Positions 3,980 through 43,693 of a DNA stretch of 53,421 bases are shown in pieces; within the stretch, counting starts at the first letter, position 1; each line of letters opens with the position of its first letter. The translations under genes and the position numbers were made by a program. Under the pieces are notes generated by a model that did not search any database, was not told where the DNA came from, and worked only from the letters and a program-made list of their open reading frames with translations. This DNA is from a virus. Lineage: Duplodnaviria > Caudoviricetes. The stretch is taken from the IMG/VR virus record IMGVR_UViG_3300013126_002137, positions 1-53,421 of that record. One strand, given 5' to 3'.

Positions 3980-5104
3980 ATGAAAGATTTACTTAAAATA
4001 TTATTAAGAGAAAACTTACTTAATGAGATTGATTGGCAAGGTAGATTCAGTGATGTGTCTAAAAAACCAATGAGTCATGATGAGGCTAAAGAATATTTAG
4101 CTAAAGTTGTTGGTAATTGCAAGTTAAAACCAGTACAAAGAGAGACAACACCTTTAGATAAACCATATATTCACTCAAAGAAAATACCACAAACACAAGA
4201 AGGTGAAATAGATATTGAAAGTTTTATATCTGATATAACAAAAATGCCAAAAGACATTCTTAGTGTTAATTCTAAAATGGAAAAGTCTAAGGATGATAAT
4301 AGTCTTTCAGTTAATATTGGTATTCCAGCATTGAGAGGTTTAGTGTATGATATCGATGAAAAGACTTTCTATATTGTAAACACATGCCCAGGTGCTGGTT
4401 CATGTGCCCTTATCTGTTATGCTAGAAGAGGTAGTTACGTTATGTTCCCAGATGTGTTCGTAAAACAGACCAGAATACTTAACTTATTATTGAATTACCC
4501 AGACAGATTTGAAAAGTTGTTACTTAGAGAATTAGAATCATTTGCCTTAAAAAACCCAGATAAAGAAATTCAGATGAGATGGAATGATGCTGGTGATTTT
4601 TTCACTACTGATTATTATGAAATAGCAACAAGAATAACCAAACAACTAAAATCTGAGGGTTATAATGTAAAATCATATGGTTATACTAAAATGGGTGATG
4701 TTGTTAATTTATCCGACCCAGATGTAACTATAAACTTCTCTGATGATGCTAATAAAAGAGAAACTAGTAAAATAAAAGATTTAAAAGGTGCTAAAAAATC
4801 AGTTATTGTCCCTAAAGACGTGTTTGATGACTTATTAGTTAAAGACGCTAAGAATAGAAATTACGAAACAAACGAAAAAGGTAAAGTAATGTTTATTGAT
4901 GGACAAAACGGGGTAAACGAATTAAAACGTAGATTAGCTAAAAAATATGATGTCGATGCTAGTACTATCGTGACTTATGATGAGTTATTAAAAATACCTA
5001 AAGGTGACGAACTAATGTATAGTGTTATTGTGATGCCTAAAGGTGATGGTGACGTAGGTGCGCAAAGAAATGATGTAAGGACTAGTTTCTTATTATTCCA
5101 TTAA
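3980..5104 (+). CDS. GP88-like Cys-motif (radical-SAM-like) phage protein
   Basis: TCPGAGSCALICYARRG and RWNDAGDF, YGYTK motifs. Confidence 0.7.
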   Translation: MKDLLKILLRENLLNEIDWQGRFSDVSKKPMSHDEAKEYLAKVVGNCKLKPVQRETTPLDKPYIHSKKIPQTQEGEIDIESFISDITKMPKDILSVNSKMEKSKDDNSLSVNIGIPALRGLVYDIDEKTFYIVNTCPGAGSCALICYARRGSYVMFPDVFVKQTRILNLLLNYPDRFEKLLLRELESFALKNPDKEIQMRWNDAGDFFTTDYYEIATRITKQLKSEGYNVKSYGYTKMGDVVNLSDPDVTINFSDDANKRETSKIKDLKGAKKSVIVPKDVFDDLLVKDAKNRNYETNEKGKVMFIDGQNGVNELKRRLAKKYDVDASTIVTYDELLKIPKGDELMYSVIVMPKGDGDVGAQRNDVRTSFLLFH

Positions 5105-5105
5105 C

Positions 5106-5133
5106 AAAAAAGGGGCGATTAAGCCCCTTTTTT
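5106..5133. terminator. Bidirectional intrinsic terminator
   Basis: AAAAAAGGGGC-GATTAA-GCCCCTTTTTT between convergent genes. Confidence 0.9.
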
Positions 5134-5136
5134 ATT

Positions 5137-5280
5137 TTACCCTTGACCAACGTATTTCTTTTTATAATTCTTAGATTTCTTAGAATTTGAATTCTTTTTC
5201 TTTGAATGTACGCCTGGTCTTTTTCTTTTTGGTTTAGCGATTCTAACGCTACTAGTTGATTGTTTGGTTGCTTTTGCCAT
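5137..5280 (-). CDS. Small basic protein (47 aa) ending KKKYVGQG
   Basis: MAKATKQSTSSVRIAKPKRKRPGVHSKKKNSNSKKSKNYKKKYVGQG; TATTTAT upstream on the - strand; converges on the terminator; not in the ORF track. Confidence 0.8.
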   Translation of the reverse strand: MAKATKQSTSSVRIAKPKRKRPGVHSKKKNSNSKKSKNYKKKYVGQG

Positions 5281-5355
5281 AATGATAACGTTTTTATGTT
5301 AATAAATACTTGATAAATTCGATTTTTTAATGTAAATTTGTTAAAAAGATTATCT

Positions 5356-5610
5356 ATGAAAAATTTAATTTATATTGATGTTGATACAGAAAGAGAAAAA
5401 CCTATATTAATTGGTAAGGGTGCTGAAGTTTCATCCCCTACAAATAAAGAGGAAGCACGTGATATGATTATCAACGATATAAGATGTGTTTGTGAAACAT
5501 TATGTATTCTTATTGAAGTTGCTGACCAAAATCAATATGCAAAAAAGGGTGAATTAATTACTGAATCAATTAAACAATTAACAAAAATGCTTATGTATGA
5601 TGAAAAATAA
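5356..5610 (+). CDS. Hypothetical protein
   Basis: ORF after promoter 5333; ATG at 5356 preferred. Confidence 0.7.
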   Translation: MKNLIYIDVDTEREKPILIGKGAEVSSPTNKEEARDMIINDIRCVCETLCILIEVADQNQYAKKGELITESIKQLTKMLMYDEK

Positions 5611-7902: not shown

Positions 7903-8214
7903 ATGGCACAAGAACGCAAAAAAACAGAACCAAAACCAATTGTCAAAACTGAACCTAAAAAAAGAGTTTCAGAGCCAGTAGCTAAAGAAACTCCTAAGAA
8001 AGAGGTTAAAGTACAACAAAAAGTTGAGGAACCAGTGGAATCAAAAACCAAAAGAAGTGAAAATAAATATGTTAGAATTGCTTTGGATGCCAAAGCTGAA
8101 GAACGGAATGAATTTTCACAAAAGGTTAAAAATGGTGAGTTGAAATATGCATTTTATGCAACAGATAATGATAAAGGTTATCATTATTATTTAGTAATTA
8201 AAAAACAAAAATAG
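7903..8214 (+). CDS. Hypothetical protein, low-complexity N-terminus
   Basis: ORF after promoter 7880. Confidence 0.7.
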   Translation: MAQERKKTEPKPIVKTEPKKRVSEPVAKETPKKEVKVQQKVEEPVESKTKRSENKYVRIALDAKAEERNEFSQKVKNGELKYAFYATDNDKGYHYYLVIKKQK

Positions 8215-8215
8215 T

Positions 8216-8788
8216 ATGGCTAATACAATGACAAATATTGTTAAAATCTTTGCTAATGATGAGGCAATAGACAAAATCAATGAAAGATTTGAAGTTGCTG
8301 GTGGTTACAGCGACATGGTAGAATTTGCAAAAGCGTTTTATGATGTACCAGAAATTATTGAAGGTGGGGTTAGTGTTTCATGGTCATTAGACAATATGGG
8401 TTCTAAATGGGTTTATATTGAGAATGATATTGATATGGATAGATGGAATATCGCATCTGCTTATTATTACCCACATGACTTTTTAAAACATCTATTCAAT
8501 TTAGTAACAGACATTGACCCAGAAGCATATATTGTAAACAAATATCAAGATGAAACTTATAGTCCATGTGGTGTTGTTGTTTATAAAAAAGATTCTGAGG
8601 GTGAACCTATGTGGTATGATTATGAAGAAGAATTTGAAGACCCAACTGATGACATGGATTGGGATGATGAGGGTTATGATGATGCTAGAGAAGATTTCAT
8701 ATATAAAATAGAAAATTTCCACGATGAACATGAAGAATATTGTATCAAAATGATTGATGAAGGGGATGGTAGAACGTTTGACGAATAA
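8216..8788 (+). CDS. Acidic hypothetical protein
   Basis: Operon-packed ORF. Confidence 0.75.
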   Translation: MANTMTNIVKIFANDEAIDKINERFEVAGGYSDMVEFAKAFYDVPEIIEGGVSVSWSLDNMGSKWVYIENDIDMDRWNIASAYYYPHDFLKHLFNLVTDIDPEAYIVNKYQDETYSPCGVVVYKKDSEGEPMWYDYEEEFEDPTDDMDWDDEGYDDAREDFIYKIENFHDEHEEYCIKMIDEGDGRTFDE

Positions 8789-11540: not shown

Positions 11541-11579
11541 AAAAAAATCCGAATAAGTTTGATTATTCGGATTTTTTTT
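11540..11579 (+). terminator. Terminator hairpin overlapping the next promoter
   Basis: AAAAAAATCCGAATAA/TTATTCGGATTTTTTT; -7 box at 11581. Confidence 0.8.
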
Positions 11580-11610
11580 GTACATTTGTATTATTAAAAT
11601 AAAGAGTTTT

Positions 11611-12621
11611 ATGGAACCAAAAAACAATGTAGAAGACACAATCAAAAATGCTGAGATTGGTGTAGTTGTTGCCCGTTTTCAAGTACATAAATTGCATGAG
11701 GGTCATATTAAATTAATCGATAAAGTTATCGAAAATCACAAGAAAGTTATTATATTTTTAGGTGTTCCAATAATTGGTAACACTAAATCTAACCCATTAG
11801 ATTATGCAACTAGAGAAGCGATGGTTAAAGAAGTTTATCCAAATGTAATCGTATTACCGTTAAAAGACCAAAGGTCAAATCAAAAATGGTCTAGTGAGTT
11901 AGATAACCTTATCCAAGTACCGTTTGGTGAACGCAGTGCGTTGAGTGCTGTTTTATATGGTAGTCGTGACTCATTTATACCATATTATTCTGGAAAATAT
12001 CCAGTTATTGAATTTACAACTGACATCATTTATTCTGGTACTGAAGTTAGAAAACAAGTTTCAAAAGAAATCTTATCATCAACCGATTTTAGGGCTGGTA
12101 TTATTCATGCAACATACGCTGCAAGACCAGTTACTTATCCAACAGTTGATATAACTGTTTACAATGATAAAGGACAAATTTTATTAGCTAAAAAACCTAA
12201 CGAACCACATTATCGTTTTATTGGTGGTTTTGTTGATAGAACCGATGAGTCATGGGAGGTTGCTGCTAGACGTGAATTTAGAGAAGAAACTGGTGGTAAT
12301 GCAGAGATTGACACACCAAGATATGTTTGTAGTGGCGCAATCAAAGATTGGCGTTATGCTAAAACGGAATCTGGTATCATGACATCATTGTTTATTAGTA
12401 AATTCTTATGGGGTAGAATTGAACCATCTGATGATATCTTTAGTTTACATTGGATTGACCCATCTAGTTTAAAAACTAATGAGATAATGGAAGAACATCA
12501 AGAACTATTTAAAAATTTGATGGATTATCTAAAACGTAATAACACGTTGGAAGATGCTAAAAATGAAGTATCAGAAGCAATAAAAAAAGCGAAAGAAAAA
12601 TACGGAGAAAGTATAGCATGA
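11611..12621 (+). CDS. nadM: Bifunctional NMN adenylyltransferase / ADP-ribose pyrophosphatase (NadM-Nudix)
   Basis: ARFQVHKLHEGH (HxGH), NPL, SGTEVR; Nudix box GGFVDRTDESWEVAARREFREETG. Confidence 0.93.
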   Translation: MEPKNNVEDTIKNAEIGVVVARFQVHKLHEGHIKLIDKVIENHKKVIIFLGVPIIGNTKSNPLDYATREAMVKEVYPNVIVLPLKDQRSNQKWSSELDNLIQVPFGERSALSAVLYGSRDSFIPYYSGKYPVIEFTTDIIYSGTEVRKQVSKEILSSTDFRAGIIHATYAARPVTYPTVDITVYNDKGQILLAKKPNEPHYRFIGGFVDRTDESWEVAARREFREETGGNAEIDTPRYVCSGAIKDWRYAKTESGIMTSLFISKFLWGRIEPSDDIFSLHWIDPSSLKTNEIMEEHQELFKNLMDYLKRNNTLEDAKNEVSEAIKKAKEKYGESIA

Positions 12622-12957: not shown

Positions 12958-14577
12958 ATGCAATCAGAAACTAGAAAAATGAAAAGAAGTTTAGCACTTA
13001 AAGAAGTGATTAAAACTAGATTAGCAGAAGCCATCAAAAATAAAGATTGGTCTTCAATCGAAACATTAGAAGGTCTTATCACAAAAGCGTTAGATAAACC
13101 TAATAACCTTATCCTTATGGGTGATGCGTATAAATACTCACACCACAAATTCTATGAGGATAACACAACACTTATTTATTCATACATGGAATCACGTGGT
13201 GGTCGTTTCAATGAAACTGTATGGTATGGTCTTGAAATGTTCATTAAAGAATATTTAGAAGGTGTTGCAATCACACAAGAAGAATTAGATGAAGCATATG
13301 AGTACTTGGGCACAAAATATGGTGTATTTGGTCGTGAAGATGTCTTTGATAAATCTAAATTCCAATACATTATCGATGTTCATGGTGGTAAGTTACCAGT
13401 ACGTATCAAAGCAGTACCAGAGGGTACAGTTGTAGGTGTTAAAAACGTTCTTATGACTATTGAGAATACTGACCCTAATTGCTATTGGTTAACTAATTTC
13501 TTAGAAACAATTATGATGCAATTATGGTATCCAATTACAGTTGCAACATTGTCACGTGAAGTTAAGAAAATTGTTATTGAATACTACCAAAAAACATCAG
13601 CATTGCCAGAACATATTATGAACACTGTTATCGAGTTCGTATTGAATGACTTTGGTTTCAGAGGTGTATCATCTGTACAATCAGCTGGCTATGGTGGTTC
13701 AGCCCATTTAATTAACTTTATGGGTTCTGACACAACTGTTGCATCAAAACGTATTTGTGATTATTACAATACTGACACTGTATTTGGTTTATCAGTACCA
13801 GCAACTGAACACTCTATCATGACAATGAAAGGTGAAGCTGGTGAAGTTGAAATGATGAGAAGAACATTGGAGAAATATCCTACTGGTATTGTTGCTTGTG
13901 TGTCTGACTCTTACCATATCTTACGTGCATGTACTGAATATTGGGGAACTGAATTACGTGATTTGATTTTATCTCGTCCAGCAGAACCAGGTAACCAACT
14001 TGTTATTCGTCCAGATAGTGGTCACGTTGTCAATACTTTAAAAGAAGTGTTTGCGATTTTGTTTGACAAATTTGGTTATACGGTAAACGATAAAGGGTTC
14101 AAAGTATTACCACCACAAGTTCGTGTTATCCAAGGTGATGGTGTAAATATCAATTCAATTCGTGAGATTTACGAAGAATTATACAGATTAGGTATTTCTG
14201 CTGAGAATATAGTGTTTGGTATGGGTGGTAAATTGTTACAAGCTGACATCAATCGTGATACACAAAATTTTGCAACAAAAGCATGTTTTGCAATTGTTAA
14301 TGGTGAGCAACGTGATTTGGTTAAATCACCAACTGAAATTGATGAAAATGGTGAATTAAAACCATCATTCAAAAAATCTAAACAAGGTAGATTGAAATTG
14401 GTTAAAGATTACACAAATAATGTTTATAAAACAGTTACATCATTAGAAGATGAATATGAAAGAGCACATGATTCTTTGGTTACTGTTTTTGAAGATGGTA
14501 AATTGTTAACTGAAACACCATTTGAAACTATCAGAAGTAGAGCTAAAATTTATAATTTAAACTTAGAAATAGCATAA
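12958..14577 (+). CDS. nadV: Nicotinamide phosphoribosyltransferase
   Basis: DAYKYSH, DFGFRG, PATEHS, VSDSY, IRPDSG, QGDG. Confidence 0.95.
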   Translation: MQSETRKMKRSLALKEVIKTRLAEAIKNKDWSSIETLEGLITKALDKPNNLILMGDAYKYSHHKFYEDNTTLIYSYMESRGGRFNETVWYGLEMFIKEYLEGVAITQEELDEAYEYLGTKYGVFGREDVFDKSKFQYIIDVHGGKLPVRIKAVPEGTVVGVKNVLMTIENTDPNCYWLTNFLETIMMQLWYPITVATLSREVKKIVIEYYQKTSALPEHIMNTVIEFVLNDFGFRGVSSVQSAGYGGSAHLINFMGSDTTVASKRICDYYNTDTVFGLSVPATEHSIMTMKGEAGEVEMMRRTLEKYPTGIVACVSDSYHILRACTEYWGTELRDLILSRPAEPGNQLVIRPDSGHVVNTLKEVFAILFDKFGYTVNDKGFKVLPPQVRVIQGDGVNINSIREIYEELYRLGISAENIVFGMGGKLLQADINRDTQNFATKACFAIVNGEQRDLVKSPTEIDENGELKPSFKKSKQGRLKLVKDYTNNVYKTVTSLEDEYERAHDSLVTVFEDGKLLTETPFETIRSRAKIYNLNLEIA

Positions 14578-21058: not shown

Positions 21059-22108
21059 ATGACACAATATTTATTATTTGTCTTAGATGGCAAAACAGAC
21101 TTAGCTGAAACTATTATGCAATCAACTAACTTATTTAGTCCAGAGAACGAGATAACTTTAGGTTATTTGAATAAACAAAAATTCTCTGACGGTGAGTTGT
21201 GTGTTGATTTTACAGACTCAGTGAGGGGCAAAACAGTGTTTTTGTTATCTAGCCCAGACACCTCAGATGCTATCATAAGTTTAGCATTAGCTATTGATGC
21301 CGCTAAACGTGGTGCTGCTAGAGAAATTATACCTATCTTACCATACTTTCCGTATGCTAGACAAGATAAAAAAGACCAATCACGTGGACCAATTGGTGCC
21401 AAAGTAATGGCTGAAATAATTGAGCAACGTGGTGCTACGTCAGTAATCACTTTTGATTTACATGCTGACCAAATACAAGGGTTTTTCAATATACCAGTTA
21501 CGCACATTGAAGGTAAACACGTATTTGACAGTTATATCTATGATACAACACAAAATCTTGAAGGTGAGATAGTATTGTGTGGTCCAGATGCTGGTTCTGG
21601 TAAACGTGTTAAACGTATGCGTGACCAAGTAAACAAACGATATGGTGTTAACTTAAACATTGTCATGATTGATAAAACCAGAAAACAAGCAAACGTTATC
21701 GATGAAATGATTATTATTGGTGATGTAAACGGTAAACACGTTTTGATATTAGATGATATGGTTGATACTGCTGGTACGTTATGTAAAGCAGCTGAAGTGT
21801 TGAAAAAAGCTGGTGCTTTATCTGTTAGGGCGATTATAGCACATGGTGTTTTATCTGGACCAGCAGTTGAAAGAGTTGGTGAGGGTGAATTGTCTGAATT
21901 AGTTATTAGTGATTCACTTACTATGAAATCAGCCAACGAATTGTGCCAAAAAGAATTTGATGAAACAAAATGTCATCACATCATTAAAGGTTGTAAAAAA
22001 ACAACTGTTATTAGCGTAGCGGAACAAATTGGTTTAGCTGTTTCAGCATCAATAAACAATTTAAGTTACGAAGTATTAAATAAATTAAAGCTGTTTACTA
22101 ATGAATAA
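21059..22108 (+). CDS. prs: Ribose-phosphate pyrophosphokinase
   Basis: FSDGE, PYFPYARQDK, DLHADQIQGFF, PDAG, DDMVDTAGT. Confidence 0.95.
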   Translation: MTQYLLFVLDGKTDLAETIMQSTNLFSPENEITLGYLNKQKFSDGELCVDFTDSVRGKTVFLLSSPDTSDAIISLALAIDAAKRGAAREIIPILPYFPYARQDKKDQSRGPIGAKVMAEIIEQRGATSVITFDLHADQIQGFFNIPVTHIEGKHVFDSYIYDTTQNLEGEIVLCGPDAGSGKRVKRMRDQVNKRYGVNLNIVMIDKTRKQANVIDEMIIIGDVNGKHVLILDDMVDTAGTLCKAAEVLKKAGALSVRAIIAHGVLSGPAVERVGEGELSELVISDSLTMKSANELCQKEFDETKCHHIIKGCKKTTVISVAEQIGLAVSASINNLSYEVLNKLKLFTNE

Positions 22109-23364: not shown

Positions 23365-24180
23365 ATGAAAGTAGCAGAAAGGATTAAATCATATTACGAA
23401 GATAGAACTAAAACATTCTTAATGAGAAGAATGATTACTATTATTCGTTTAGATGGAAAAGGTTTTTCCAAATGGACTAAAGGTCTACAAAAACCTTTTG
23501 ATGAAGGGTTTACGGATGACATGATTGAAACAGCAAAGTACTTGTGTGAAAACATTCAAGGTGCTAAATTTGCTTATGCTCAATCAGATGAAATCTCTAT
23601 TGTACTATCTGATTTTGATAACTTAGAATCACAAGCTTGGTTTGATTACAACGTTCAAAAGATGACTAGTATTGCTGCATCTATAGCAACTGCTAAGTTC
23701 AATCAATTAAGAATGTCAAGGTCATGTTCATATGGTCAGTTAGACCAAGATTATATCAATGATTTCAAAATAGCAATGTTTGATGCTAGAGTATTCCAAG
23801 TACCTACTGTTGATGAAATGGTTAACGTAATGATTTGGAGGCAGCAAGATGCCACTAGAAATAGTGTTAGTATGGCGGCAAGTGAATATTTTTCACACAA
23901 GTCATTAGAAGGTGTTTCATCTAACGATAAACAAGACCGTTTATTCCAAGAAAAAGGAATTAATTGGAATGATTATCCGACTAAATTCAAGAGGGGTACT
24001 GTCATCAAAAAAGAAGAAGTTACATTAGTTAAAAAAAGCGAATATATTTCTGATAAAACAACTGTTATTGATGATAGAATGATTTTTACTAGAAATGTTT
24101 GGGAAGCTGATGTCGATACACCTATCTTTACTCAAGATAAAGAGTATTTGTCTAATTTAATACCCACATCAAATGACTAA
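23365..24180 (+). CDS. thg1: Thg1-like tRNA(His) guanylyltransferase / 3'-5' polymerase
   Basis: IRLDGKGFS, AQSDEIS, FDARV, WRQQDATRNS. Confidence 0.92.
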   Translation: MKVAERIKSYYEDRTKTFLMRRMITIIRLDGKGFSKWTKGLQKPFDEGFTDDMIETAKYLCENIQGAKFAYAQSDEISIVLSDFDNLESQAWFDYNVQKMTSIAASIATAKFNQLRMSRSCSYGQLDQDYINDFKIAMFDARVFQVPTVDEMVNVMIWRQQDATRNSVSMAASEYFSHKSLEGVSSNDKQDRLFQEKGINWNDYPTKFKRGTVIKKEEVTLVKKSEYISDKTTVIDDRMIFTRNVWEADVDTPIFTQDKEYLSNLIPTSND

Positions 24181-24712
24181 CGAAGAACTATTTTGTGCTT
24201 GTGTAAAGGGTGACCCACAAGCACAAAGTTTCTTATATAAGAAATATCATAAAAATTTATTTAGTATATGTAAGAAATATTTTAACAATGAACATGACTC
24301 CATGGATTGTTTACAAGATGGGTTTATACATATATTTAGAAAACTAAAAACTGTTGACATAAACAATGTGTTAATACTAGGTAGTTGGTTACGTGTAGTT
24401 ATGAGAAACTATTGTTTAGATGTTGTTAGGAAAAAGAAAAGAGAACTTTATTTTGATAACATAGAGTATTTTACAAGTGAAATTACTAGCGAAGATGAGT
24501 TTGAACCATTAGTTTCACATAATACTTTATTAGAATTGATAGAAAACCTATCACCACAGTTTAAAAACGTGTTTATTATGTACGCACTTGATGATATGCA
24601 ACATAAAGACATAGCGGAAAAATTGGGGATTAGTGTAAATACATCTAAAACTAATTACCATAGAGCAAAAAAATCACTAAAAAAATCATTATATAGGTTG
24701 AAACTTATATAA
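24173..24712 (+). CDS. ECF-type sigma factor
   Basis: Region 2 DCLQDGFI...WLRVVMRNYCLD; region 4 HKDIAEKLGISVNTSKTNYHRAK. Confidence 0.92.
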   Translation: MTNEELFCACVKGDPQAQSFLYKKYHKNLFSICKKYFNNEHDSMDCLQDGFIHIFRKLKTVDINNVLILGSWLRVVMRNYCLDVVRKKKRELYFDNIEYFTSEITSEDEFEPLVSHNTLLELIENLSPQFKNVFIMYALDDMQHKDIAEKLGISVNTSKTNYHRAKKSLKKSLYRLKLI

Positions 24713-24759: not shown

Positions 24760-26340
24760 ATGAAGTTTAAAGAATTAACGGATGAAATCATTGAAAAAGC
24801 TAGACAAATCTATACTGATAAGAATATCAGTTGGGATAATAGGATGTCACTATTAACAGAGTTGTTTGGTCGTTCAGAAAGAACTGTCAGAAAATGGTGT
24901 TCTGAGAAATTAGGGTTTAAAGAAAAAGCAGAAGTTGAACCAGAACAGTACACTCAAGCAAAAAGTAGAGTGTTTGATAAAGAAAAAAAGAGGTTTATCA
25001 TCACTTGGGCGCAAAACAACACACCAGTACACACTAAGTTTCTTAAAAACATAGAAAAGTATGCTGAATTTATCGAAGCTGATATACATGTCATAGCTGG
25101 TAGATATAAAAACCCAACTAGTGTTTGGACAAACCAACAAGAAAGTGAAGAATTTTGGGATGATAAAGTGGTTAAATACTTAGATGCAAATAGACACGAC
25201 ATACATAAATACGTATCTATACTATCTGATATTAAAATACCACCTACAGCTGTTAACCCAATGACTGGTATGCAAGCGTTAAGTGGTGTTAATTCTTGTG
25301 TTTTCGGAAGCCCTAAAGTACAAATGGAAATGATACCAGTGTTAGATGGTAATGTACCTAAAATGATGTTGACTAGTGGTTCTATTACTATGCAAAATTA
25401 CACGGATTCAAAGTCTGGTAAAGTTGGCGAGTTTCATCATACGTTTGGGTTTGTCATTGTTGAGATAAAGGATGATGAAATATTCTTTGCTAGACAAGTA
25501 ACCGCTGATGATAAAACTGGTAATTTTTCTGATTTATGTTATAGGGTTGAGAATGGGGATGTTAAAAACATTAACAAATTAGAAGCGATTGTATTAGGTG
25601 ATTTACATTGTGGACATCATGATGATAAAGTATTGGAGACAACTATCAATATGATGTATAAGATGCTACCTAAACACGTAATATTACATGATGTTTTTGA
25701 TGGAGATTCAATCAGTCATCACCAAATGAAAGACCCATTTGTTCAGTATGGTAAAGAAGTACAAGGTACAAACGATTTGGGTAAAGAAATTGATGAAATG
25801 ATGGATGTGTTAGATAACTTTAAAGAGTTTGAAAACGTTGTAATTGTTCGTTCAAACCATGATGACTTTGTTGACAGATGGTTAAAGAATGAGGATTGGA
25901 AGAAACAACCAACATTCAAAAATGCACCATTGTATATGGATTTAAGTGCTAGGTTGTTAAGACAACACGGTACTGGTGATGAAGTTATAGGTGTTATTCC
26001 AGAACTAATCAAAGAAAGATTCCCTAAGTTTATTACGTTAGGGAGAAGTGCTTCTTATAGAGTAAAAGACTGGGAATTAGGACAACATGGCGACATTGGT
26101 TCTAACGGAAGTAGGGGTTCATTGTTACAGTTTAGAAAACTTAATACTAAAATTATAGTTGGACACTATCATTCTCCAGGTCGTAAAGATGGTGCAATAG
26201 CTGTTGGTACATCTACAACTTTAAGAGTTGGGTATAACAATGGGCCAAGTACTTGGTTACAAAGCCATGTTATCATTCACACTGATGGTAGAGCACAACA
26301 TGTTAATTTTATAAATGGTGAATACACAACATTAGGATAA
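24760..26340 (+). CDS. Large phage protein with N-terminal HTH and C-terminal metallophosphoesterase-like domain
   Basis: SERTVRKW; LGDLH, LHDVFD, SNHD, GQHGD, GHYHS. Confidence 0.75.
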   Translation: MKFKELTDEIIEKARQIYTDKNISWDNRMSLLTELFGRSERTVRKWCSEKLGFKEKAEVEPEQYTQAKSRVFDKEKKRFIITWAQNNTPVHTKFLKNIEKYAEFIEADIHVIAGRYKNPTSVWTNQQESEEFWDDKVVKYLDANRHDIHKYVSILSDIKIPPTAVNPMTGMQALSGVNSCVFGSPKVQMEMIPVLDGNVPKMMLTSGSITMQNYTDSKSGKVGEFHHTFGFVIVEIKDDEIFFARQVTADDKTGNFSDLCYRVENGDVKNINKLEAIVLGDLHCGHHDDKVLETTINMMYKMLPKHVILHDVFDGDSISHHQMKDPFVQYGKEVQGTNDLGKEIDEMMDVLDNFKEFENVVIVRSNHDDFVDRWLKNEDWKKQPTFKNAPLYMDLSARLLRQHGTGDEVIGVIPELIKERFPKFITLGRSASYRVKDWELGQHGDIGSNGSRGSLLQFRKLNTKIIVGHYHSPGRKDGAIAVGTSTTLRVGYNNGPSTWLQSHVIIHTDGRAQHVNFINGEYTTLG

Positions 26341-26735
26341 TGAAAAAGAAATTTAAAACGTTTACTCCACTTACTAGTATTAGAAAAAAAGAACTTACTA
26401 AGTTGTTTAAATCTAAAATAGAATTATATGAGTGGCAACATCCAATTAGATGGTGTCATAAATATAAAATAACGAAAGAAGAGTGTAAGTTATGGTTGGC
26501 AGAACTAGTTGCCAATCATGCTAAAACACCTAAAAACACATTAGATTATGCACAATATTGTTTAGGTGCGTGGGGTAAACATTTTGAATTGACCAATGAA
26601 CAATTTGATAACATAAAAAATTGTGTTAATAACGGAGATGATGCTAAACAAATAGCATTCAATATTTTAAACACTGTTAAATTTGACCAAATAGAATTAA
26701 TTAGTGTTGATGAACATTATTTCTTGGAAAAATAG
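26340..26735 (+). CDS. Hypothetical protein
   Basis: TAATG-coupled ORF. Confidence 0.7.
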   Translation: MKKKFKTFTPLTSIRKKELTKLFKSKIELYEWQHPIRWCHKYKITKEECKLWLAELVANHAKTPKNTLDYAQYCLGAWGKHFELTNEQFDNIKNCVNNGDDAKQIAFNILNTVKFDQIELISVDEHYFLEK

Positions 26736-26777
26736 TTTTTTATTACTACATTTGTAGCATAACTTAAAAAATATAAC

Positions 26778-27164
26778 ATGGAAGATAATAAATTTGAAAT
26801 TTTTAAAGAAGTATTTGGCGAGATTGCTAAATCACATTTTAATGCGTGTGAATCTTTTATGAATAACTTAAAAGAGTGTGAAGACAATAGTGATATTGCA
26901 CAACTTATGTATAGATATTCTGATGATATCGCTGAAAAATTAGATGCTTACTCCGATGATGTCAATGAGTTAGAAAGAAAAATAGATGAGTTAGAAAGAA
27001 AAATAGATGATTTAGAAGATGAACTTTCTGACTTAGAAGCACAGTTATTAGAAGCTAAAGAACCATTTGGTGAAACATTACATGACGATATGAAGTTAAC
27101 TCTGTTTTTACAACATGTTCATAAGTTCACACCATGGGAATTAGAAGAAATTTTAACTAAATGA
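26778..27164 (+). CDS. Coiled-coil hypothetical protein
   Basis: After promoter 26747; heptad repeats. Confidence 0.75.
   Translation: MEDNKFEIFKEVFGEIAKSHFNACESFMNNLKECEDNSDIAQLMYRYSDDIAEKLDAYSDDVNELERKIDELERKIDDLEDELSDLEAQLLEAKEPFGETLHDDMKLTLFLQHVHKFTPWELEEILTK
26965..27010 (+). repeat. 21-bp tandem duplication (one heptad, ELERKID)
   Basis: ATGAGTTAGAAAGAAAAATAG x2 plus ATGA. Confidence 0.9.
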
Positions 27165-27165
27165 T

Positions 27166-27588
27166 ATGGAAAATGGGATTATAATCGGGGTGGATTTTGA
27201 TGGTACGTGTGTTACACATGATTACCCTAGAGTTGGGTTAGATATTGGTGCGGTACCAATACTTAAAAGATTAACAGATAATGGTCATCAGCTTATGTTA
27301 TGGACTATGCGTGGTACTAAACCACACACTGATGGTACAGATACATTGGGTGATGCTGTTAAATGGTTTGCTGATAATGACATTCCGTTGTGGGGTATAA
27401 ATGAAAATCCAGAACAACAAGCAGCTGGATGGAGTAATAGTAATAAACAATATGCGAATTTGTTTATTGATGATACAGCATTGGGTTGTCCATTGATTTT
27501 TGATGTTAAAAAATCACATAAACCATTTGTAGATTGGATAATAGTTGAAGAATATTTGGTAAATAGAGGTTTAATATGTGTAAAATAA
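27166..27588 (+). CDS. HAD phosphatase (BT0820-like)
   Basis: VDFDGT, LWTMR, INENP, FIDD. Confidence 0.85.
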   Translation: MENGIIIGVDFDGTCVTHDYPRVGLDIGAVPILKRLTDNGHQLMLWTMRGTKPHTDGTDTLGDAVKWFADNDIPLWGINENPEQQAAGWSNSNKQYANLFIDDTALGCPLIFDVKKSHKPFVDWIIVEEYLVNRGLICVK

Positions 27589-28598
27589 TAGCTGCTGGTG
27601 TATTTATTGTTAATAGAAACAATAAATTATTGATTTGTCACCCAACAAATCATAAACCAAATACATGGAGTATTCCAAAAGGTAAGGTTGAAGCTATGGA
27701 ATCATATAAAGATGCTTGTGTGAGGGAAACATTTGAAGAAACAAACATTGATTTATCTGATTACAAAGATAAATTAATTATGTTGGATAGTGTAAACTAT
27801 TCACATAAAAGAAAAATGCTCATTCCTTTTGTATTATTTGAGAATGATTGTGAATTATTAAATTTATCTTTGATAACAATACAATGTAATTCAAATGTAC
27901 CAGAAGATAGAGGTGGTTTTCTAGAGATGGATGATTATAAATGGGTGACAATTGAGGAGGCTAAAGAATTATTACATGAAACACAAGTTGCATGTTTAGA
28001 TAAAGTTAAACGATTATCTTCAAGGAAAGCAGCACAACTAGAAGAAGAATTATTATTAGAAAGGTATCTTAATGGTGATAATACAGCCTTTAGCCCTCTA
28101 TATTATAGGTATAGAGGATTAGTTTTATTTCATTTGAATAAAAGTTTTAGTTATTTAAGTAATGAAGATATTGAGGATTTGGCTATTGATTTTTTAGGTA
28201 GAATAAGTGGTAGACTAAATTTGTATGATAAAGAAAAAAGTTTATTTAGGACTTGGATGACTAAATGTATTTTGCATTTCATAACAGAACATAAAAATAA
28301 AAAATCAACAAGAGAAAAAGATATTACGGATTCAATAACAACATATAATTCTGATAATGAATATTATGATATGTATATGATTTCAGATGATGATACATTA
28401 AAAAATGTGAGTTATCTTAATATAATTAAATTAATAAAAGAAAGATTATGTGATGATGATTGGAAAATATTTGAATTGCATTTTTTACAAGGATACAACC
28501 AAGCTGAAACTGGTAAACGATTAGGGTTAAGAGAAGATACTATGTGGTTTAGAATAAAAAGAATTAGAAAAAGGTTAGATGGGTTACAAAATTTATAA
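27576..28598 (+). CDS. Nudix hydrolase fused to an ECF-like sigma factor
   Basis: Nudix box GKVEAMESYKDACVRETFEETNI; sigma region 2 (GDNTAFSPLY...IEDL...FRTWM) and region 4 (GYNQAETGKRLGLREDTMWFRIKRIRKRL). Confidence 0.8.
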   Translation: MCKIIAAGVFIVNRNNKLLICHPTNHKPNTWSIPKGKVEAMESYKDACVRETFEETNIDLSDYKDKLIMLDSVNYSHKRKMLIPFVLFENDCELLNLSLITIQCNSNVPEDRGGFLEMDDYKWVTIEEAKELLHETQVACLDKVKRLSSRKAAQLEEELLLERYLNGDNTAFSPLYYRYRGLVLFHLNKSFSYLSNEDIEDLAIDFLGRISGRLNLYDKEKSLFRTWMTKCILHFITEHKNKKSTREKDITDSITTYNSDNEYYDMYMISDDDTLKNVSYLNIIKLIKERLCDDDWKIFELHFLQGYNQAETGKRLGLREDTMWFRIKRIRKRLDGLQNL

Positions 28599-28606
28599 TT
28601 AATTTA

Positions 28607-28828
28607 ATGATGATGAGATTAGATTTACATGGGGTAAAACACCACGAAGTTTGCAGACGAGTTGATGAGTTTATTTGGGAAACTATGCAGAAGAAAAAAA
28701 CACAAGCCCTTATTATAACTGGCAAATCAAGACCTATGAAGGAGTTAGTAAAGGAATGTTTAAAAGATTACGATGCTAAATGTTTTGATTTGTTTGATGG
28801 TGGGAGTTTAGTTGTTGATTTATTTTAA
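28607..28828 (+). CDS. Stand-alone Smr domain protein
   Basis: LDLHG...IITGKS. Confidence 0.8.
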   Translation: MMMRLDLHGVKHHEVCRRVDEFIWETMQKKKTQALIITGKSRPMKELVKECLKDYDAKCFDLFDGGSLVVDLF

Positions 28829-28891
28829 AAATAAATTTGCGAATTAAAAAAATAGTTAGTACATTTGTAGTATAAATTAAAAATAAAATAA

Positions 28892-30145
28892 ATGAGTGAT
28901 GTAAAAAAAGTATGGAATGAAGACGGTAGTAGATTATACCTTTCATTTCCATCACAAGAGTTTGACCTTTTAGATGCTGGTTCTGTTTATAGCGTTGGTG
29001 TTGACGAAATGGGTCATTTCTTCTTAACAAAGAAAAGTGAAGGTTATAAATTTGATTACAAACTATATGGTTTGGAAACAGATTTCATTAACCGAGTGGT
29101 TAAAACATACAGTAAAACACAAGGCAACTTGGGTATTTTATTGAATGGTATCAAAGGTACTGGTAAAACAGTGAGTTCAAAATTGATTGCAACTAAAATC
29201 AATTTACCAATTATCGTTGTTGATAGAAAAATGGATGGTGTTCACACTTTCTTAAACACTATCACACAAGACATCACTATTTTTATTGATGAGTATGAAA
29301 AAGTATATGGTGATTCAGCTCAAATGTTGACTATCATGGATGGTGCGTTGAACTCAACATACAGACGTTTGTTTTTATTAACAACTAACGAGTTATATGT
29401 TGATAGAAACATCATTGAACGCCCAAGTCGTGTACGTTACTTGAAAATGTTTGGTAATCTTAAACCAGATGTGGTTGAAGAAATTGTTGATGATATCTTA
29501 GAATACCCACAATTCAAAAAAGAATGTATTACATTCATTTCTAGTCTTGAAACTATCACTATTGATATTGTAAAAGCAGTGTTGAATGAAGTTAACATTC
29601 ATGAAGAAGCTCCATCTGCATTTGAAAGCGTATTTAACGTTAAGAAAATCAAAGGTAGTTACAACGTTAACCTTGTTGAAGATGGTCAGTTAAGTAAGTT
29701 GGCTAAAAACGTTAGAGTTTATCCAAAACCAACTTACAACGATGATTCAATCGGTTACCACTTTGAAATTGATGGTCAATCAATTGGTATGGTTACTAGA
29801 ATCATAAACTGGACAACTGTTGAGGTTTCGCCTTACACTGACAAGAGAGGTAAACAAATCGGTTTTGATGAACCAATTATCTTGAAAGTAGAAGATGCTG
29901 ACACTGTGAACTACGCATACAGCTATGGCTCATACGATGAGTTTGGTCTTCCAACAAATACCTCAGCTATTTCAACTACAAAAGAGGTTTCACCAATTGC
30001 TAATAAAATAATTCAAGCGTTTGAAAAATCGGAGGAAGAAGATGGGGCTGAAATAGATGGGAGTATTGAAGATGAAGTTGTAGTTTCAGAAACTACAACT
30101 TCATCTATTGATTTACAACTAATATATAAAAAAATTGGTGGGTAA
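28892..30145 (+). CDS. AAA+ ATPase
   Basis: GIKGTGKT, IFIDEYEK, TTN, RPSR. Confidence 0.9.
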   Translation: MSDVKKVWNEDGSRLYLSFPSQEFDLLDAGSVYSVGVDEMGHFFLTKKSEGYKFDYKLYGLETDFINRVVKTYSKTQGNLGILLNGIKGTGKTVSSKLIATKINLPIIVVDRKMDGVHTFLNTITQDITIFIDEYEKVYGDSAQMLTIMDGALNSTYRRLFLLTTNELYVDRNIIERPSRVRYLKMFGNLKPDVVEEIVDDILEYPQFKKECITFISSLETITIDIVKAVLNEVNIHEEAPSAFESVFNVKKIKGSYNVNLVEDGQLSKLAKNVRVYPKPTYNDDSIGYHFEIDGQSIGMVTRIINWTTVEVSPYTDKRGKQIGFDEPIILKVEDADTVNYAYSYGSYDEFGLPTNTSAISTTKEVSPIANKIIQAFEKSEEEDGAEIDGSIEDEVVVSETTTSSIDLQLIYKKIGG

Positions 30146-30152
30146 CAATAAA

Positions 30153-30176: not shown

Positions 30177-30193
30177 ATTATTAAAAATTAAAA

Positions 30194-42829: not shown

Positions 42830-43693
42830 ATGAAGAGTTTAACAATTAGCAATTTAATTACAAGTAGAGAAAATGATTCTTTTAAAAAGTATTTAAAAGA
42901 AGTATCTAAAATCAAACCATTTACTGTCGAAGAAGAGGCAGCATGTGCGTTAAAAGCATTCAATGGTGATAAAAAAGCAAAAGAAGAGTTGGTTATTAGA
43001 AACCTAAAGTTTGTGATTAGTGTTGCTAAACAGTATGTTACACCACAATCTCCATTGGAAGATTTGGTTAACGAAGGTAACATGGGATTAATAATGGCAG
43101 CTGAAAGATTTAACCCAGATGAAAAGGTTAAGTTTATATCTTATGCCGTTTGGTGGATTAGAAAAATAATCATCGAACATATCAACAAATATAACCGTAT
43201 GGTTAGATTACCGTTGAATAAAATAACTAGTTTGTCTAAGTTAGATAAGTTAATTGCAGAGAAAGAACAAGAGAAAGGTCGTAAAATTGAAATTCATGAA
43301 CTATCAACTGATTTAAACACTGATGAGTATGAAGCATTGGAAGTATTAACTACTTATAAAATGGATTCATTGGATAGACAATTAGGTGGTGAAGATGGTG
43401 ATGGTTCAACCCTTATCGATTTATTAGCTGATAATACGTTTAAAAGTAGTGACCACTTGGTTACTGATTCAGACCATAAAACAACATTATTTAAAGGTTT
43501 AGAATCATTAAAGGCGAGAGATAAAGAAATTATAATATTGCTATTTGGTTTAGATGGTAAAGAACCAAGAACATTACAAGAAGTAAGTGATATTGTTGGA
43601 ATGAGCCGTGAAATGGTTAGACAAGTTAAAATGAAGTCACTTGTTAAATTAAGTAAAAATAAAAACATACAAACAGCTTATAGCGAGTTGTAA
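42830..43693 (+). CDS. RpoD/RpoS-family sigma-70 factor
   Basis: YLKEV, NLKFVISVAKQY, DLVNEGNMGL, FISYAVWWIR, TLQEV...SREMVRQ. Confidence 0.93.
   Translation: MKSLTISNLITSRENDSFKKYLKEVSKIKPFTVEEEAACALKAFNGDKKAKEELVIRNLKFVISVAKQYVTPQSPLEDLVNEGNMGLIMAAERFNPDEKVKFISYAVWWIRKIIIEHINKYNRMVRLPLNKITSLSKLDKLIAEKEQEKGRKIEIHELSTDLNTDEYEALEVLTTYKMDSLDRQLGGEDGDGSTLIDLLADNTFKSSDHLVTDSDHKTTLFKGLESLKARDKEIIILLFGLDGKEPRTLQEVSDIVGMSREMVRQVKMKSLVKLSKNKNIQTAYSEL

What the first reader, a model, noticed from the sequence alone, without database searches (positions are those of the whole stretch)
27576..28598. Nudix hydrolase fused in frame to an ECF-like sigma factor
Seen: an intact Nudix box in the first ~145 aa, a short linker (DKVKRLSSRKAAQLEEE) with no stop or nearby Met, then sigma regions 2 and 4. 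Established: ECF extensions are usually C-terminal; Nudix enzymes act on Ap4A, (p)ppGpp, ADP-ribose and RNA 5' caps. I do not know this fusion. Inference: a nucleotide-sensing sigma factor, or a way to tether decapping or alarmone hydrolysis to RNA polymerase.
Basis: partly seen in the sequence, partly recalled or inferred. Interest (0 to 1): 0.7.

Follow-up and report, generated by a model that had tools for sequence, protein, structure and literature searches.

The report
Phage sigma factor carrying Nudix enzyme
A large freshwater phage has one gene in which a nucleotide-cleaving Nudix enzyme is joined head-to-tail to a complete sigma factor, a rare, recent and conserved fusion that may place an RNA-cap or nucleotide hydrolase directly on the host RNA polymerase.

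Summary
ORF 27576..28598 (+) encodes 340 aa with no stop. Residues 5-133 are a Nudix domain and 171-334 an ECF-type sigma factor.

The sigma half is ECF-like by fold too: its best solved match is E. coli sigmaE.

The fusion is not an assembly artefact. A second metagenome contig, L016, carries the same 340-codon frame at 84% aa identity with no indel. dN/dS is 0.16 for the Nudix half and 0.17 for the sigma half. A contig from another study crosses the junction without gap or stop.

The fusion is derived and rare:
- A relative, L001, has the 150-aa Nudix gene alone, its stop overlapping the next gene's start.
- Of 25 loci with this sigma, 23 have it free-standing with no Nudix nearby.
- The fused forms make one small clade.

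All Nudix catalytic residues are kept. The nearest folds are Dcp2, Ap4A/Ap6A hydrolases and RppH, and phage relatives are annotated NudE.

Best reading (inferred, about 0.4): the sigma half carries an active cap or dinucleotide hydrolase onto RNA polymerase. The main rival is a tolerated stop-loss fusion with no coupling. This is a new domain architecture of known parts; interest is moderate.

The parts
27576..28598 (+). Fused Nudix-sigma ORF, 340 aa plus stop
   Evidence: ORF list and sequence. Intact 340-aa counterpart in L016:4551..5573 at 84% aa identity.
27576..28010 (+). Nudix hydrolase domain (residues 1-145)
   Evidence: Pfam NUDIX 5-133, E 3.9e-15. AF2 pLDDT 95-99. VIA Z about 16 to Dcp2 and Ap4A/Ap6A hydrolases, and Foldseek hits to Dcp2 and RppH.
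27681..27749 (+). Nudix box, residues 36-58 (G36, E42, R50, E51, E54, E55)
   Evidence: Read from the sequence. Conserved in 37 to 40 of 40 family rows.
27978..28070 (+). Predicted continuous connector helix, residues 135-165, spanning the fusion joint (R150 | K151 at 28023-28028)
   Evidence: AF2 helix H135-165, block pLDDT 94-97. The joint was placed by comparison with the Nudix stop in L001/L002 and the start of free-standing sigmas.
28071..28316 (+). Sigma region 2 domain (residues about 166-247)
   Evidence: TIGR02937 171-334. Pfam Sigma70_r2 176-244, weak. Helices H169-190, H196-211, H224-240. Foldseek hits to sigmaE region 2 structures.
28320..28397 (+). Disordered sigma2-sigma4 linker (residues 249-274)
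   Evidence: pLDDT below 50 in both models.
28398..28583 (+). Sigma region 4 domain (residues about 275-336)
   Evidence: Pfam Sigma70_r4_2 297-334 above cut-off. Helices 280-333.
28607..28828 (+). Smr-domain gene (73 aa) that marks the downstream edge of the sigma insertion
   Evidence: Pfam Smr 4.9e-8. In L001 and L002 its ATG overlaps the TGA stop of the stand-alone Nudix gene.
27166..27588 (+). Upstream 140-aa ORF overlapping the fused gene's start by 13 nt (probable co-transcription). No Pfam match at E <= 0.01.

Best explanation
Shown, confidence above 0.9:
- This is a genuine single gene of a freshwater jumbo phage.
- An apparently active Nudix pyrophosphohydrolase (residues 1-145) is joined by a predicted uninterrupted helix to the N-terminus of a complete ECF-type sigma factor (sigma2, flexible linker, sigma4).
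- In the fused genes the sigma half has lost its own start codon and can only be made as the fusion.
- The fused genes form one clade among sigmas called as free-standing genes, which points to a single fusion event.
- The frame has since been kept under purifying selection in both halves.

Inferred origin: a free-standing phage sigma gene came to lie directly behind the Nudix gene, and the Nudix stop and the sigma start were lost.

Inferred working:
- The sigma half binds host RNA polymerase core and directs it to a set of phage promoters.
- The Nudix half therefore rides on the holoenzyme.
- There it hydrolyses nucleoside-diphosphate-X compounds that matter at initiation. The likeliest are non-canonical 5' caps (NAD, Np4N) on the transcripts this holoenzyme starts, or the free dinucleotides that seed such caps.
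- The result would be that transcripts from these promoters end in a defined 5' state.
For: Real and selected:
- The ORF is intact in the window and in L016, with 340 codons, no indel and 84% aa identity.
- dN/dS is 0.16 for the Nudix half, 0.50 for the linker and 0.17 for the sigma half, at dS 0.45.
- A 21-kb contig of run X1 (possible source) matches with one change, outside the ORF. A 307-nt contig from another study (X4) crosses 27870-28176 with no gap. With its 9 listed changes it has no stop and an identical junction peptide.
- No in-frame start codon lies at the joint.

Both halves look functional:
- G36 is conserved in 39 of 40 family rows and E42 in 37 of 40. R50, E51, E54 and E55 are in all 40, and the fusion keeps all six.
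- The sigma half passes TIGR02937.
- Folded alone, its best solved matches are ECF sigmas: sigmaE 1or7 at 3.9e-6, then SigW, AlgU, CnrH and the sigmaE initiation complex 6jbq.

Kind of Nudix:
- Best solved sequence matches are Dcp2 Nudix domains at about 1e-6.
- Best fold matches are Dcp2, Ap4A/Ap6A hydrolases and RppH.
- Phage matches are genes annotated nudE/Nudix in T4-like phages, for example RB43 nudE at 32% identity, 1e-8, and NudE of phage IME08 in BFVD.
- T4 NudE.1 decaps NAD-RNA in vitro (bioRxiv 10.1101/2024.04.04.588121, abstract and section 35).
- Y75 sits 17 residues after the box and is conserved in 35 of 40 rows. A tyrosine downstream of the Nudix motif, in the loop that paper calls the X-loop, correlates with ApnA hydrolase activity (PMC5389931 passages).

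Context:
- The same window carries NAD salvage genes: NAMPT, an NMNAT-Nudix fusion and a PRPP synthase. NAD supply is evidently important to this phage.

Geometry:
- AF2 predicts one continuous helix, residues 135-165, across the joint, with overall pLDDT 89.9.
Against: - The two genes are separate in nearly all relatives. Of 25 loci with this sigma, 23 have it free-standing, with no Nudix within 3 kb and no conserved neighbour.
- All 11 viral-contig loci with the Nudix matched residues 1-151 only. In L001 the Nudix stop directly abuts the Smr gene.
- L001 is as close to the fused genomes as they are to each other. Nudix identity is 88% for L016-L001 and 82.7% for window-L016. The sigma module is therefore dispensable or exchangeable.
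- This Nudix family also occurs joined to other partners: an N-terminal ParB-like plus membrane segment, and a C-terminal Cys-rich domain. Fusion in this family may be cheap.
- No activity, RNAP binding or expression was measured.
- From recalled holoenzyme structures, the sigma2 N-terminus lies at the upstream edge of the main cleft, not at the RNA exit channel. Direct access to nascent 5' ends is not obvious.
- Fold matches within the Nudix superfamily are tied at Z 14-16 and do not fix a substrate.
Confidence: 0.4

Rival explanations
1. Tolerated accident. The sigma gene landed behind the Nudix gene in a gene-dense region where stops and starts overlap, and the stop was lost. The two domains now work independently of each other, as they do when separate. 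The fusion gives no mechanistic coupling beyond shared expression.
For: - Free-standing forms dominate: 23 of 25 sigma loci, and all 11 viral Nudix loci.
- In relatives the Nudix stop overlaps the next gene's ATG (ATGA), so small changes can fuse frames.
- The same Nudix family has other fused partners.
- The fused clade is tiny, and a close relative lacks the module.
- Linker dN/dS is 0.50, higher than in the domains.
Against: - The frame has been kept without indel, stop or new start through dS 0.45 in AT-rich DNA, where stops arise easily.
- Three alleles keep it: the window, L016/P0001 and the X4 contig.
- The joint is predicted as a rigid continuous helix, not a floppy tether.
- The sigma lost its own conserved leader and start, so it is now fully dependent on the Nudix gene's signals.
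Confidence: 0.35
2. Sensor domain. The Nudix half works as a ligand-binding input (ADP-ribose, NAD or a related metabolite) that switches the sigma half on or off. This would be analogous to NrtR/AraR regulators, where a Nudix-like domain sits N-terminal to a DNA-binding domain.
For: - The order, Nudix then DNA-binding module, is the same as in NrtR. The NrtR Nudix domain (3gz8, Z 15.6) and AraR (5bs6, Z 13.4) are among the fold matches.
- NrtR family regulators control NAD synthesis genes (PMC2330246, search listing and start of abstract only). NAD salvage genes lie in this window.
- ECF sigmas are known to be regulated by fused extensions (PMC7826278 passages).
- No anti-sigma-like conserved neighbour was found.
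Against: - All catalytic residues are intact and under purifying selection. That NrtR-type Nudix domains are usually degenerate is recalled, not tested here.
- The same Nudix domain exists as a 150-aa stand-alone protein in close relatives, with nothing to regulate.
- The NrtR and AraR matches are not better than those to enzymes.
Confidence: 0.12
3. Pro-sigma. The Nudix half is an N-terminal pro-domain that keeps the sigma inactive until it is cut off, as described for the N-terminal extension of BldN.
For: - N-terminal extension with proteolytic maturation is the one well-described case among ECFs (PMC7826278 passage).
- BldN appears among weak sequence and fold matches of the sigma half.
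Against: - The BldN family score, 28.4 bits, is far below its cut-off of 206.
- The joint is predicted helical with high confidence and has no evident protease site.
- A fully conserved enzyme is an unusual pro-domain.
Confidence: 0.06
4. Artefact. A frameshift, chimeric assembly or sequencing error created the long ORF.
For: The window is a metagenome-assembled contig. No RNA or protein data exist.
Against: - An independent contig, L016, has the same frame at 87% nt identity.
- P0001 from another source spans the joint.
- The X4 contig from a different study bridges it.
- The X1 contig has word depth 23.5 with no variant in the ORF.
Confidence: 0.02

Closest known systems
T4-type phage Nudix hydrolase NudE / NudE.1
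   Same: A phage-encoded, roughly 150-aa single-domain Nudix enzyme. The window's Nudix half matches genes annotated nudE/Nudix in T4-like phages at 30-34% identity, E 1e-9 to 1e-4, and NudE of phage IME08 by fold. NudE.1 hydrolyses NAD and decaps NAD-RNA in vitro and resembles RppH (bioRxiv 10.1101/2024.04.04.588121, section 35).
   Different: NudE.1 is a free protein. Here the domain is covalently joined to a sigma factor. Identity is low, and the substrate of this enzyme is unknown.
ECF (group 4) sigma factors with fused extensions (C-terminal in ECF41/42; N-terminal in BldN/ECF121, SigC/ECF36s4)
   Same: A two-domain sigma2-linker-sigma4 core with an extra domain on one end.
   Different: According to PMC7826278, N-terminal extensions are rarer than C-terminal ones and generally shorter, and the described extensions are regulatory (passages). 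That paper has 0 occurrences of 'Nudix' and states that phage ECFs were not captured. Here the extension is a complete 145-aa enzyme fold with intact catalytic residues.
NrtR / AraR Nudix-related transcriptional regulators
   Same: An N-terminal Nudix-fold domain followed by a DNA-binding module, with a link to NAD metabolism (PMC2330246, listing and abstract start). Both appear among the fold matches.
   Different: The C-terminal module of NrtR is described as a DNA-binding domain of a repressor (the winged-helix detail is recalled). It is not a sigma factor that recruits RNAP. The Nudix box here is catalytically complete.
RppH, Ap4A/Ap6A hydrolases and Dcp2 (the Nudix branch acting on dinucleoside polyphosphates and RNA 5' ends)
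   Same: These are the best structural and sequence neighbours of the Nudix half: Z about 16, Foldseek 4e-9 to 1e-7, phmmer 1e-6. A conserved Tyr lies downstream of the Nudix box.
   Different: Matches are tied with many other Nudix enzymes. None of these enzymes is part of a transcription initiation factor.
Sigma factors of large 'group 2' jumbo phages that redirect host RNAP
   Same: A jumbo phage with no RNAP gene seen in this window and several own sigma genes, three in this window. This matches the description in PMC7824862 (passages).
   Different: The passages of that review that I read, all 11 places holding 'Nudix' or 'sigma factor', describe no sigma fused to an enzyme. The Nudix fusions they mention are with NAD-utilising and ADP-ribose-processing domains and with NMNAT.

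Membership tests
Nudix hydrolase superfamily (PF00293) | Nudix box GX5EX7REUXEEXGU with the catalytic REx2EE glutamates | tested here: met
   The box reads G36, E42, R50, E51, E54, E55. Two non-catalytic positions differ from the consensus, T52 and N57, as in most family rows. Pfam 56.5 bits against a cut-off of 21.1.
Nudix hydrolase superfamily (PF00293) | Nudix alpha/beta/alpha sandwich fold | tested here: met
   AF2 pLDDT 95-99 over residues 1-150. VIA Z 13-16 to 50 solved Nudix entries over model residues 1-153. Foldseek E down to 3.8e-9.
Nudix hydrolase superfamily (PF00293) | Mg/Mn-dependent hydrolysis of a nucleoside diphosphate-X substrate | not testable with these tools
   Needs an enzyme assay.
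ApnA hydrolase / RppH-like Nudix branch | Conserved tyrosine in the loop downstream of the Nudix box (the 'X-loop') | tested here: inconclusive
   Y75 lies 17 residues after the box and is conserved in 35 of 40 rows. The motif is described in PMC5389931. I did not obtain a residue-level alignment to a solved Ap4A hydrolase, and the exact expected spacing is recalled.
NudC-type NAD(H) diphosphatase | SQPWPFPxS motif downstream of the Nudix box | tested here: not met
   No such motif occurs in the 340-aa sequence. The motif is as given in PMC5389931. NudC (1vk6, 8zb3) ranks below the top fold matches, at Z 14.3 and 13.8.
ECF (group 4) sigma-70 family | Sigma2 and sigma4 domains only, joined by a short linker, with no sigma3 or sigma1.1 | tested here: met
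   TIGR02937 171-334, 51.8 bits against a cut-off of 42.9. Sigma70_r4_2 is above its cut-off and Sigma70_r2 below it, at 16.2 against 24. The model shows two helical domains with a disordered linker at 249-274. The Foldseek hits with E <= 0.001 are mostly ECF sigmas, led by sigmaE 1or7 at 3.9e-6.
ECF (group 4) sigma-70 family | Binds RNAP core and directs promoter-specific initiation | not testable with these tools
   The host is unknown. No biochemical data exist.
ECF (group 4) sigma-70 family | Cognate anti-sigma factor or other regulator in a conserved neighbourhood | tested here: not met
   No neighbour family is shared by more than 4 of 25 loci.
NrtR family of Nudix-related regulators | C-terminal DNA-binding domain of NrtR type behind the Nudix-like domain | tested here: not met
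   The C-terminal half is a sigma factor by HMM and fold. No NrtR model appeared among the 25 NCBIfam rows shown, of 35 families matched.
BldN-type pro-sigma (ECF121) | Membership of the BldN family, and proteolytic removal of the N-terminal extension | tested here: not met
   TIGR02952 scores 28.4 bits against a cut-off of 206. Proteolysis itself is not testable here.

The most novel reading that the evidence does not exclude
A sigma factor that brings its own 5'-end editing enzyme. The Nudix domain is an integral part of the RNA polymerase holoenzyme, and it removes or prevents NAD/Np4N-type caps specifically on the transcripts started from this sigma's promoters. This would be promoter-class-specific, initiation-coupled control of RNA 5' chemistry in a bacterial system. 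By Rosetta-stone logic it would also imply that the free phage NudE-type enzymes act at the polymerase.
Probability: 0.25. Interest if true: 0.8.

Novelty: new variant of a known kind. Interest (0 to 1): 0.55.

Why it matters
Non-canonical 5' caps (NAD, Np4N) are installed by RNA polymerase at initiation. How cells and phages control them is an open question. T4 NudE.1 has only recently been shown to decap NAD-RNA in vitro.

A natural covalent link between such an enzyme and an initiation factor would give a direct, testable handle on whether decapping is coupled to transcription initiation. It would also be the first enzyme-bearing N-terminal extension of an ECF-type sigma that I could find.

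If the fusion is only a tolerated accident, it still shows how freely accessory sigma genes move and fuse in jumbo-phage genomes.

Tried and rejected
- Complex prediction of the sigma half against the Nudix half as separate chains gave 'no answer' (score 0.00, controls not run). It is not used as evidence either way.
- The look-up of sequencing runs listed no RNA holder. Expression is therefore untested.
- A scan of viral contigs with the sigma alignment found no relative: 8 pattern matches, 0 confirmed.
- The search for homologous proteins with the sigma half and lengths 'longer' found none among 1059 candidates. This is weak, because even the known 340-aa forms were not returned.
- The search of protein representatives gave 1673 hits at E <= 0.001.
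  - Among the 150 listed, none has a best stretch spanning both halves.
  - A Pfam scan of 10 proteins showed no protein with both families. These were 7 long or multi-stretch hits from that list (P0059, P0112, P0090, P0106, P0097, P0126, P0060) plus P0055, P0049 and P0034.
  - The other 1523 hits were not seen.
- ESM Atlas named clusters returned only sigma clusters, at about 0.81, which is chance level.
- BFVD top 50: the good alignments cover the Nudix domain alone. Three long targets align over 295-408 columns, but at rmsd 18-23, so they are not usable.
- The sigma-70-type promoter scan of 24000-31500 found 53 sites against 44 +/- 7 expected, and terminator-like sites 3 against 2.3. Nothing usable came of it.
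- GC is lower in the sigma half (0.24-0.25) than in the flanks (0.30-0.35). I noted this as weak support for a foreign insert and did not rely on it.
- The search of earlier findings was not open.
Whether any of them sits unfused directly behind a Nudix gene remains open.
- Literature searches for the fusion:
  - 'Nudix, sigma factor, fusion, ECF': 7 papers, none on such a protein by title or abstract start.
  - 'jumbo phage, sigma factor, Nudix': 5 papers, one read in passages.
  - 'Nudix domain, sigma-70, domain architecture': 0 papers.
- Supplementary tables of PMC7826278, which list ECF subgroups with N-terminal extensions, could not be seen and may bear on the novelty claim.
Full report
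**1. The observation**

The window is a 53,421-base viral contig with all long ORFs on the + strand. CheckV estimates it at 15% of a genome, which implies a jumbo phage of roughly 350 kb. ORF 27576..28598 (+) encodes 340 aa with no stop, and its ATG overlaps the upstream ORF by 13 nt.

Domain matches:
- Pfam NUDIX at residues 5-133: 3.9e-15, 56.5 bits, cut-off 21.1.
- Sigma70_r4_2 at 297-334: 27.2 bits, cut-off 25.7.
- Sigma70_r2 at 176-244: only 16.2 bits, cut-off 24.
- NCBIfam TIGR02937 (sigma70-ECF) over 171-334: 51.8 bits, cut-off 42.9.
- PHROGs: Nudix (phrog_1185, 5e-20) and sigma factor (phrog_1740, 6e-15).

The Nudix box is G36-x5-E42-x7-R50-E51-T52-x-E54-E55-x-N57-I58. There is no ATG, GTG or TTG in frame around it.

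**2. Is the fusion real?**

Three lines of evidence say yes.

(a) An independent diverged copy. Metagenome contig L016 carries an intact 340-aa ORF (4551..5573).
- It is 84% identical in protein and 87% in DNA, with no indel.
- It lies in the same neighbourhood: a Smr gene, an AAA ATPase and IF3 downstream.
- Nei-Gojobori dN/dS between the two is 0.16 (Nudix, residues 1-140), 0.50 (linker, 141-165) and 0.17 (sigma, 166-340), at dS 0.45.
- Both halves and the frame have therefore been maintained while synonymous sites diverged substantially.

(b) A second source. P0001 is a 238-aa contig-edge fragment from another source. It spans the joint and is identical to L016 over the sigma part.

(c) Sequencing runs.
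- Run X1, possibly the source sample, has a 21,159-base contig at word depth 23.5 covering 27300-28900. Its single difference lies outside the ORF.
- Run X4, a different study labelled freshwater sediment, has a 307-base contig covering 27870-28176 with 10 substitutions and no gap.
- With the 9 substitutions the tool listed, its translation has no stop, an identical junction peptide and 5 amino-acid changes in the end of the Nudix domain.

These runs are contigs, not raw reads. Rare variants would not show.

**3. Is the C-terminal half a sigma factor by structure?**

- The full-length AF2 model has mean pLDDT 89.9 and pTM 0.69. It shows a Nudix domain, one continuous helix 135-165 across the joint, a helical domain, a disordered stretch 249-274 and a second helical domain.
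- Folded alone, the sigma half has pLDDT 76.6.
- Its best Foldseek matches in the PDB are E. coli sigmaE (1or7, 3.9e-6), SigW, AlgU, CnrH, the sigmaE initiation complex 6jbq, BldN, and M. tuberculosis sigmaH and sigmaL.
- A profile of the family finds SigI6, an ECF sigma, SigW and RpoE in the PDB by sequence at about 1e-3.

So the half is an ECF-like two-domain sigma. The disordered stretch lies where the sigma2-sigma4 linker belongs.

**4. What kind of Nudix?**

Family residues:
- In 40 family rows, G36 is found in 39 and E42 in 37. R50, E51, E54, E55, K80, C104, E117 and Q137 are in all 40. The fused protein has every one.

Solved structures:
- By sequence, the best solved relatives are Dcp2 Nudix domains at about 1e-6.
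- By Foldseek they are Dcp2, RppH and Ap4A hydrolases, at 4e-9 to 1e-7.
- By VIA-align they are Dcp2, Ap4A and Ap6A hydrolases and a mycobacterial diadenosine polyphosphatase, at Z about 16. These are tied within 1-2 Z of many other Nudix enzymes.

Phage relatives:
- In the phage collection, 263 records match. All 40 listed rows cover only query residues 5-154; I did not see the other 223.
- Typical hits are 'nudE' or 'nudix hydrolase' of T4-like phages at 30-34% identity.
- The best is an unannotated 635-kb uncultured phage, at 38%.

Specificity motifs:
- Y75 lies 17 residues after the box and is conserved in 35 of 40 rows. This fits the tyrosine marker of ApnA hydrolases described in PMC5389931 (passages).
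- The NADH-diphosphatase motif SQPWPFPxS is absent.
- I did not verify the tyrosine by residue-level alignment to a solved enzyme, so it is a lead only.

T4 NudE.1 hydrolyses NAD and decaps NAD-RNA in vitro, does not trim ppp-RNA, and resembles RppH (bioRxiv 10.1101/2024.04.04.588121, abstract and section 35).

**5. How the fusion arose**

Relatives without the sigma:
- In L001, a 206-kb viral contig with 82% Nudix identity, the Nudix gene is 150 aa and ends ...KQLFSR.
- Its TGA stop overlaps the ATG of the Smr gene. L002 shows the same arrangement.
- In the window and in L016, a 190-codon sigma reading frame plus a short spacer sits exactly between R150 and the Smr gene.
- L001 has only a 26%-identical sigma paralogue about 2.5 kb upstream. 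This is probably the counterpart of the window's 24173..24712 gene.

The sigma as a free-standing gene:
- The sigma family is abundant as a free-standing 191-196-aa protein. By the coverage column, of 52 hits 41 cover only the sigma half, 10 cover only the Nudix half, and 1 (P0001) crosses the joint.
- These proteins start about where the window has K151, for example MDEQQKEEE....
- I examined 25 loci carrying this sigma: the window plus L016-L039. L040-L043 were left out because the sigma is cut by a contig end.
- Two of the 25 are fused. The other 23 have no Nudix homologue within 3 kb, as far as the contigs reach.
- No neighbouring gene family is shared by more than 4 loci.

Phylogeny:
- A maximum-likelihood tree of 47 sigma rows puts the window with L016/P0001 in one supported clade (99/93).
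- That clade is nested in a 13-row clade of 191-aa free-standing forms, which is itself nested in further free-standing forms.
- The bootstrap had not fully settled, and P0001 and L016 are identical in the sigma part.
- The fusion is therefore derived and most simply arose once.

Mosaicism:
- On the Nudix half, L016 is closer to the unfused L001 (88%) than to the window (82.7%). The flanking genes give mixed orders.
- So the sigma module is present or absent among near-equidistant genomes. Either it spreads, or it is lost, by recombination.
- It is accessory to these phages, not core.

Other partners:
- The same Nudix family also occurs as longer called proteins. Some carry an N-terminal ParB-like (DGxHRY) plus membrane segment: P0034, P0037, P0042, P0046, P0047.
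- Others carry a C-terminal Cys-rich domain: P0049, P0051.
- Pfam finds only NUDIX in the two of these that I scanned, P0034 and P0049.

**6. Context**

- The window holds two further sigma genes: 24173..24712 (179 aa) and 42830..43693 (287 aa). Both exceed the TIGR02937 cut-off.
- It also holds a set of NAD salvage genes:
  - NAMPT at 12958..14577 (2e-148).
  - A cytidyltransferase-like (NMNAT-type) plus Nudix protein at 11578..12621.
  - A ribose-phosphate pyrophosphokinase at 21059..22108.
- It holds a full-length IF3 homologue and nine tRNA genes.
- The 649-aa nuclease is closest, at 47-48%, to two uncultured phages of 635-642 kb.
- Freshwater Flavobacterium jumbophages with NAMPT plus NMNAT-Nudix islands, two sigma variants and a translation initiation factor have been described (PMC13573597 passages). 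This is a lead on host and lineage. I did not test it.

**7. Mechanism**

Shown: one ORF, both domains intact and under purifying selection, and no way to make the sigma half separately.

Inferred:
- The sigma half docks on host core RNAP, as ECF sigmas do. The Nudix enzyme is then part of the holoenzyme.
- The Nudix branch (ApnA hydrolase/RppH/Dcp2-like, NudE-like) suggests the substrate. So does the fact that RNAP itself installs NAD and Np4N caps at initiation (T4 preprint above; PMC7044304, listing and abstract start only).
- The most economical function is hydrolysis of such caps, or of their free precursors, at the promoters this sigma serves.
- A phage that boosts NAD supply would raise the chance of NAD-initiated transcripts. 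This gives a rationale, but it is speculation.

Weak points:
- The fusion is rare and dispensable.
- Small molecules diffuse too fast for 'local depletion' to mean much.
- From recalled holoenzyme structures, the N-terminus of sigma2 lies near the upstream edge of the main cleft rather than at the RNA exit.

I put this reading at about 0.4, and a tolerated stop-loss fusion without coupling at 0.35. An NrtR-like sensor arrangement gets 0.12, a cleavable pro-sigma 0.06 and an artefact 0.02.

**8. Comparison with what is known, and novelty**

- N-terminal extensions of ECF sigmas are described as rarer than C-terminal ones, generally shorter and regulatory. Phage ECFs were not captured by the ECF classification, and the word Nudix does not occur in that paper (PMC7826278).
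- The passages I read of the jumbo-phage comparative review mention Nudix fusions only with NAD-utilising and ADP-ribose-processing domains and with NMNAT. They describe sigma factors only as free proteins (PMC7824862).
- Three literature searches found no report of a Nudix-sigma protein.
- No second architecture of this kind appeared among the protein hits I could inspect. Most weak hits were not inspected, and supplements were closed.

I rate it a new variant of a known kind: a new domain architecture built from two well-known families and confined to a small phage lineage.

Interest is 0.55. The architecture would surprise people working on sigma factors or RNA caps, and it gives a concrete experiment. 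Its rarity and the free-standing state in close relatives leave a real chance that it has no special mechanism.

Noticed in passing
window 11578-12621, 12958-14577, 21059-22108: An NAD salvage set: a cytidyltransferase-like (NMNAT-type) plus Nudix fusion protein, NAMPT (phrog_448, 2e-148) and a ribose-phosphate pyrophosphokinase. It resembles the 'NAD-salvage islands' described for freshwater Flavobacterium jumbophages (PMC13573597 passages).
   Followed up: partly
window 24173-24712 and 42830-43693: Two further phage sigma-factor genes, of 179 aa and 287 aa, both above the TIGR02937 cut-off. The window therefore holds three sigma genes.
   Followed up: partly
window 30651-31148: A full-length translation initiation factor IF3 homologue, with IF3_N at 3e-17 and IF3_C at 9e-27. 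It is conserved in L001 and L016.
   Followed up: no
window 1176-2821: A cluster of nine tRNA genes: Pro x2, Gln, Tyr, Thr x2, Gly x2 and Lys. The second tRNA-Pro is 89 nt long.
   Followed up: no
P0034, P0037, P0042, P0046, P0047; P0049, P0051 (proteins): The same Nudix family occurs as longer called proteins. Some carry an N-terminal ParB-like (DGxHRY) plus hydrophobic segment, others a C-terminal Cys-rich domain. In L001 the ParB-like gene is separate, at 8018..8398. The family seems prone to fusion with whatever lies next to it.
   Followed up: partly
L019, L021, L026, L027, L029: about 25 nt upstream of the free-standing sigma ATG: A near-identical AT-rich leader of about 24 nt travels with the free-standing sigma gene into different upstream contexts, including directly behind a tRNA gene in L021 and L026. 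It is absent from the fused genes.
   Followed up: no
L016 510-4402: Between the 131-aa gene and the fused gene, L016 carries three paralogous ORFs with repeated W/Y-rich ...NGWY.EC.. HM... units and a 507-aa helicase-like ORF. All are absent from the window, which has two other small ORFs there (26778..27164 coiled-coil, 27166..27588). The region upstream of the Nudix gene is also a variable spot.
   Followed up: no
window 28607-28828: A 73-aa Smr-domain protein (4.9e-8) lies directly behind the fused gene. In relatives its start overlaps the Nudix stop.
   Followed up: partly
window 28095-28117: A 10-pair terminator-like hairpin lies inside the sigma coding region, over the conserved PLYYRYRG codons. 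Such sites are no more frequent than in shuffles, 3 against 2.3.
   Followed up: no
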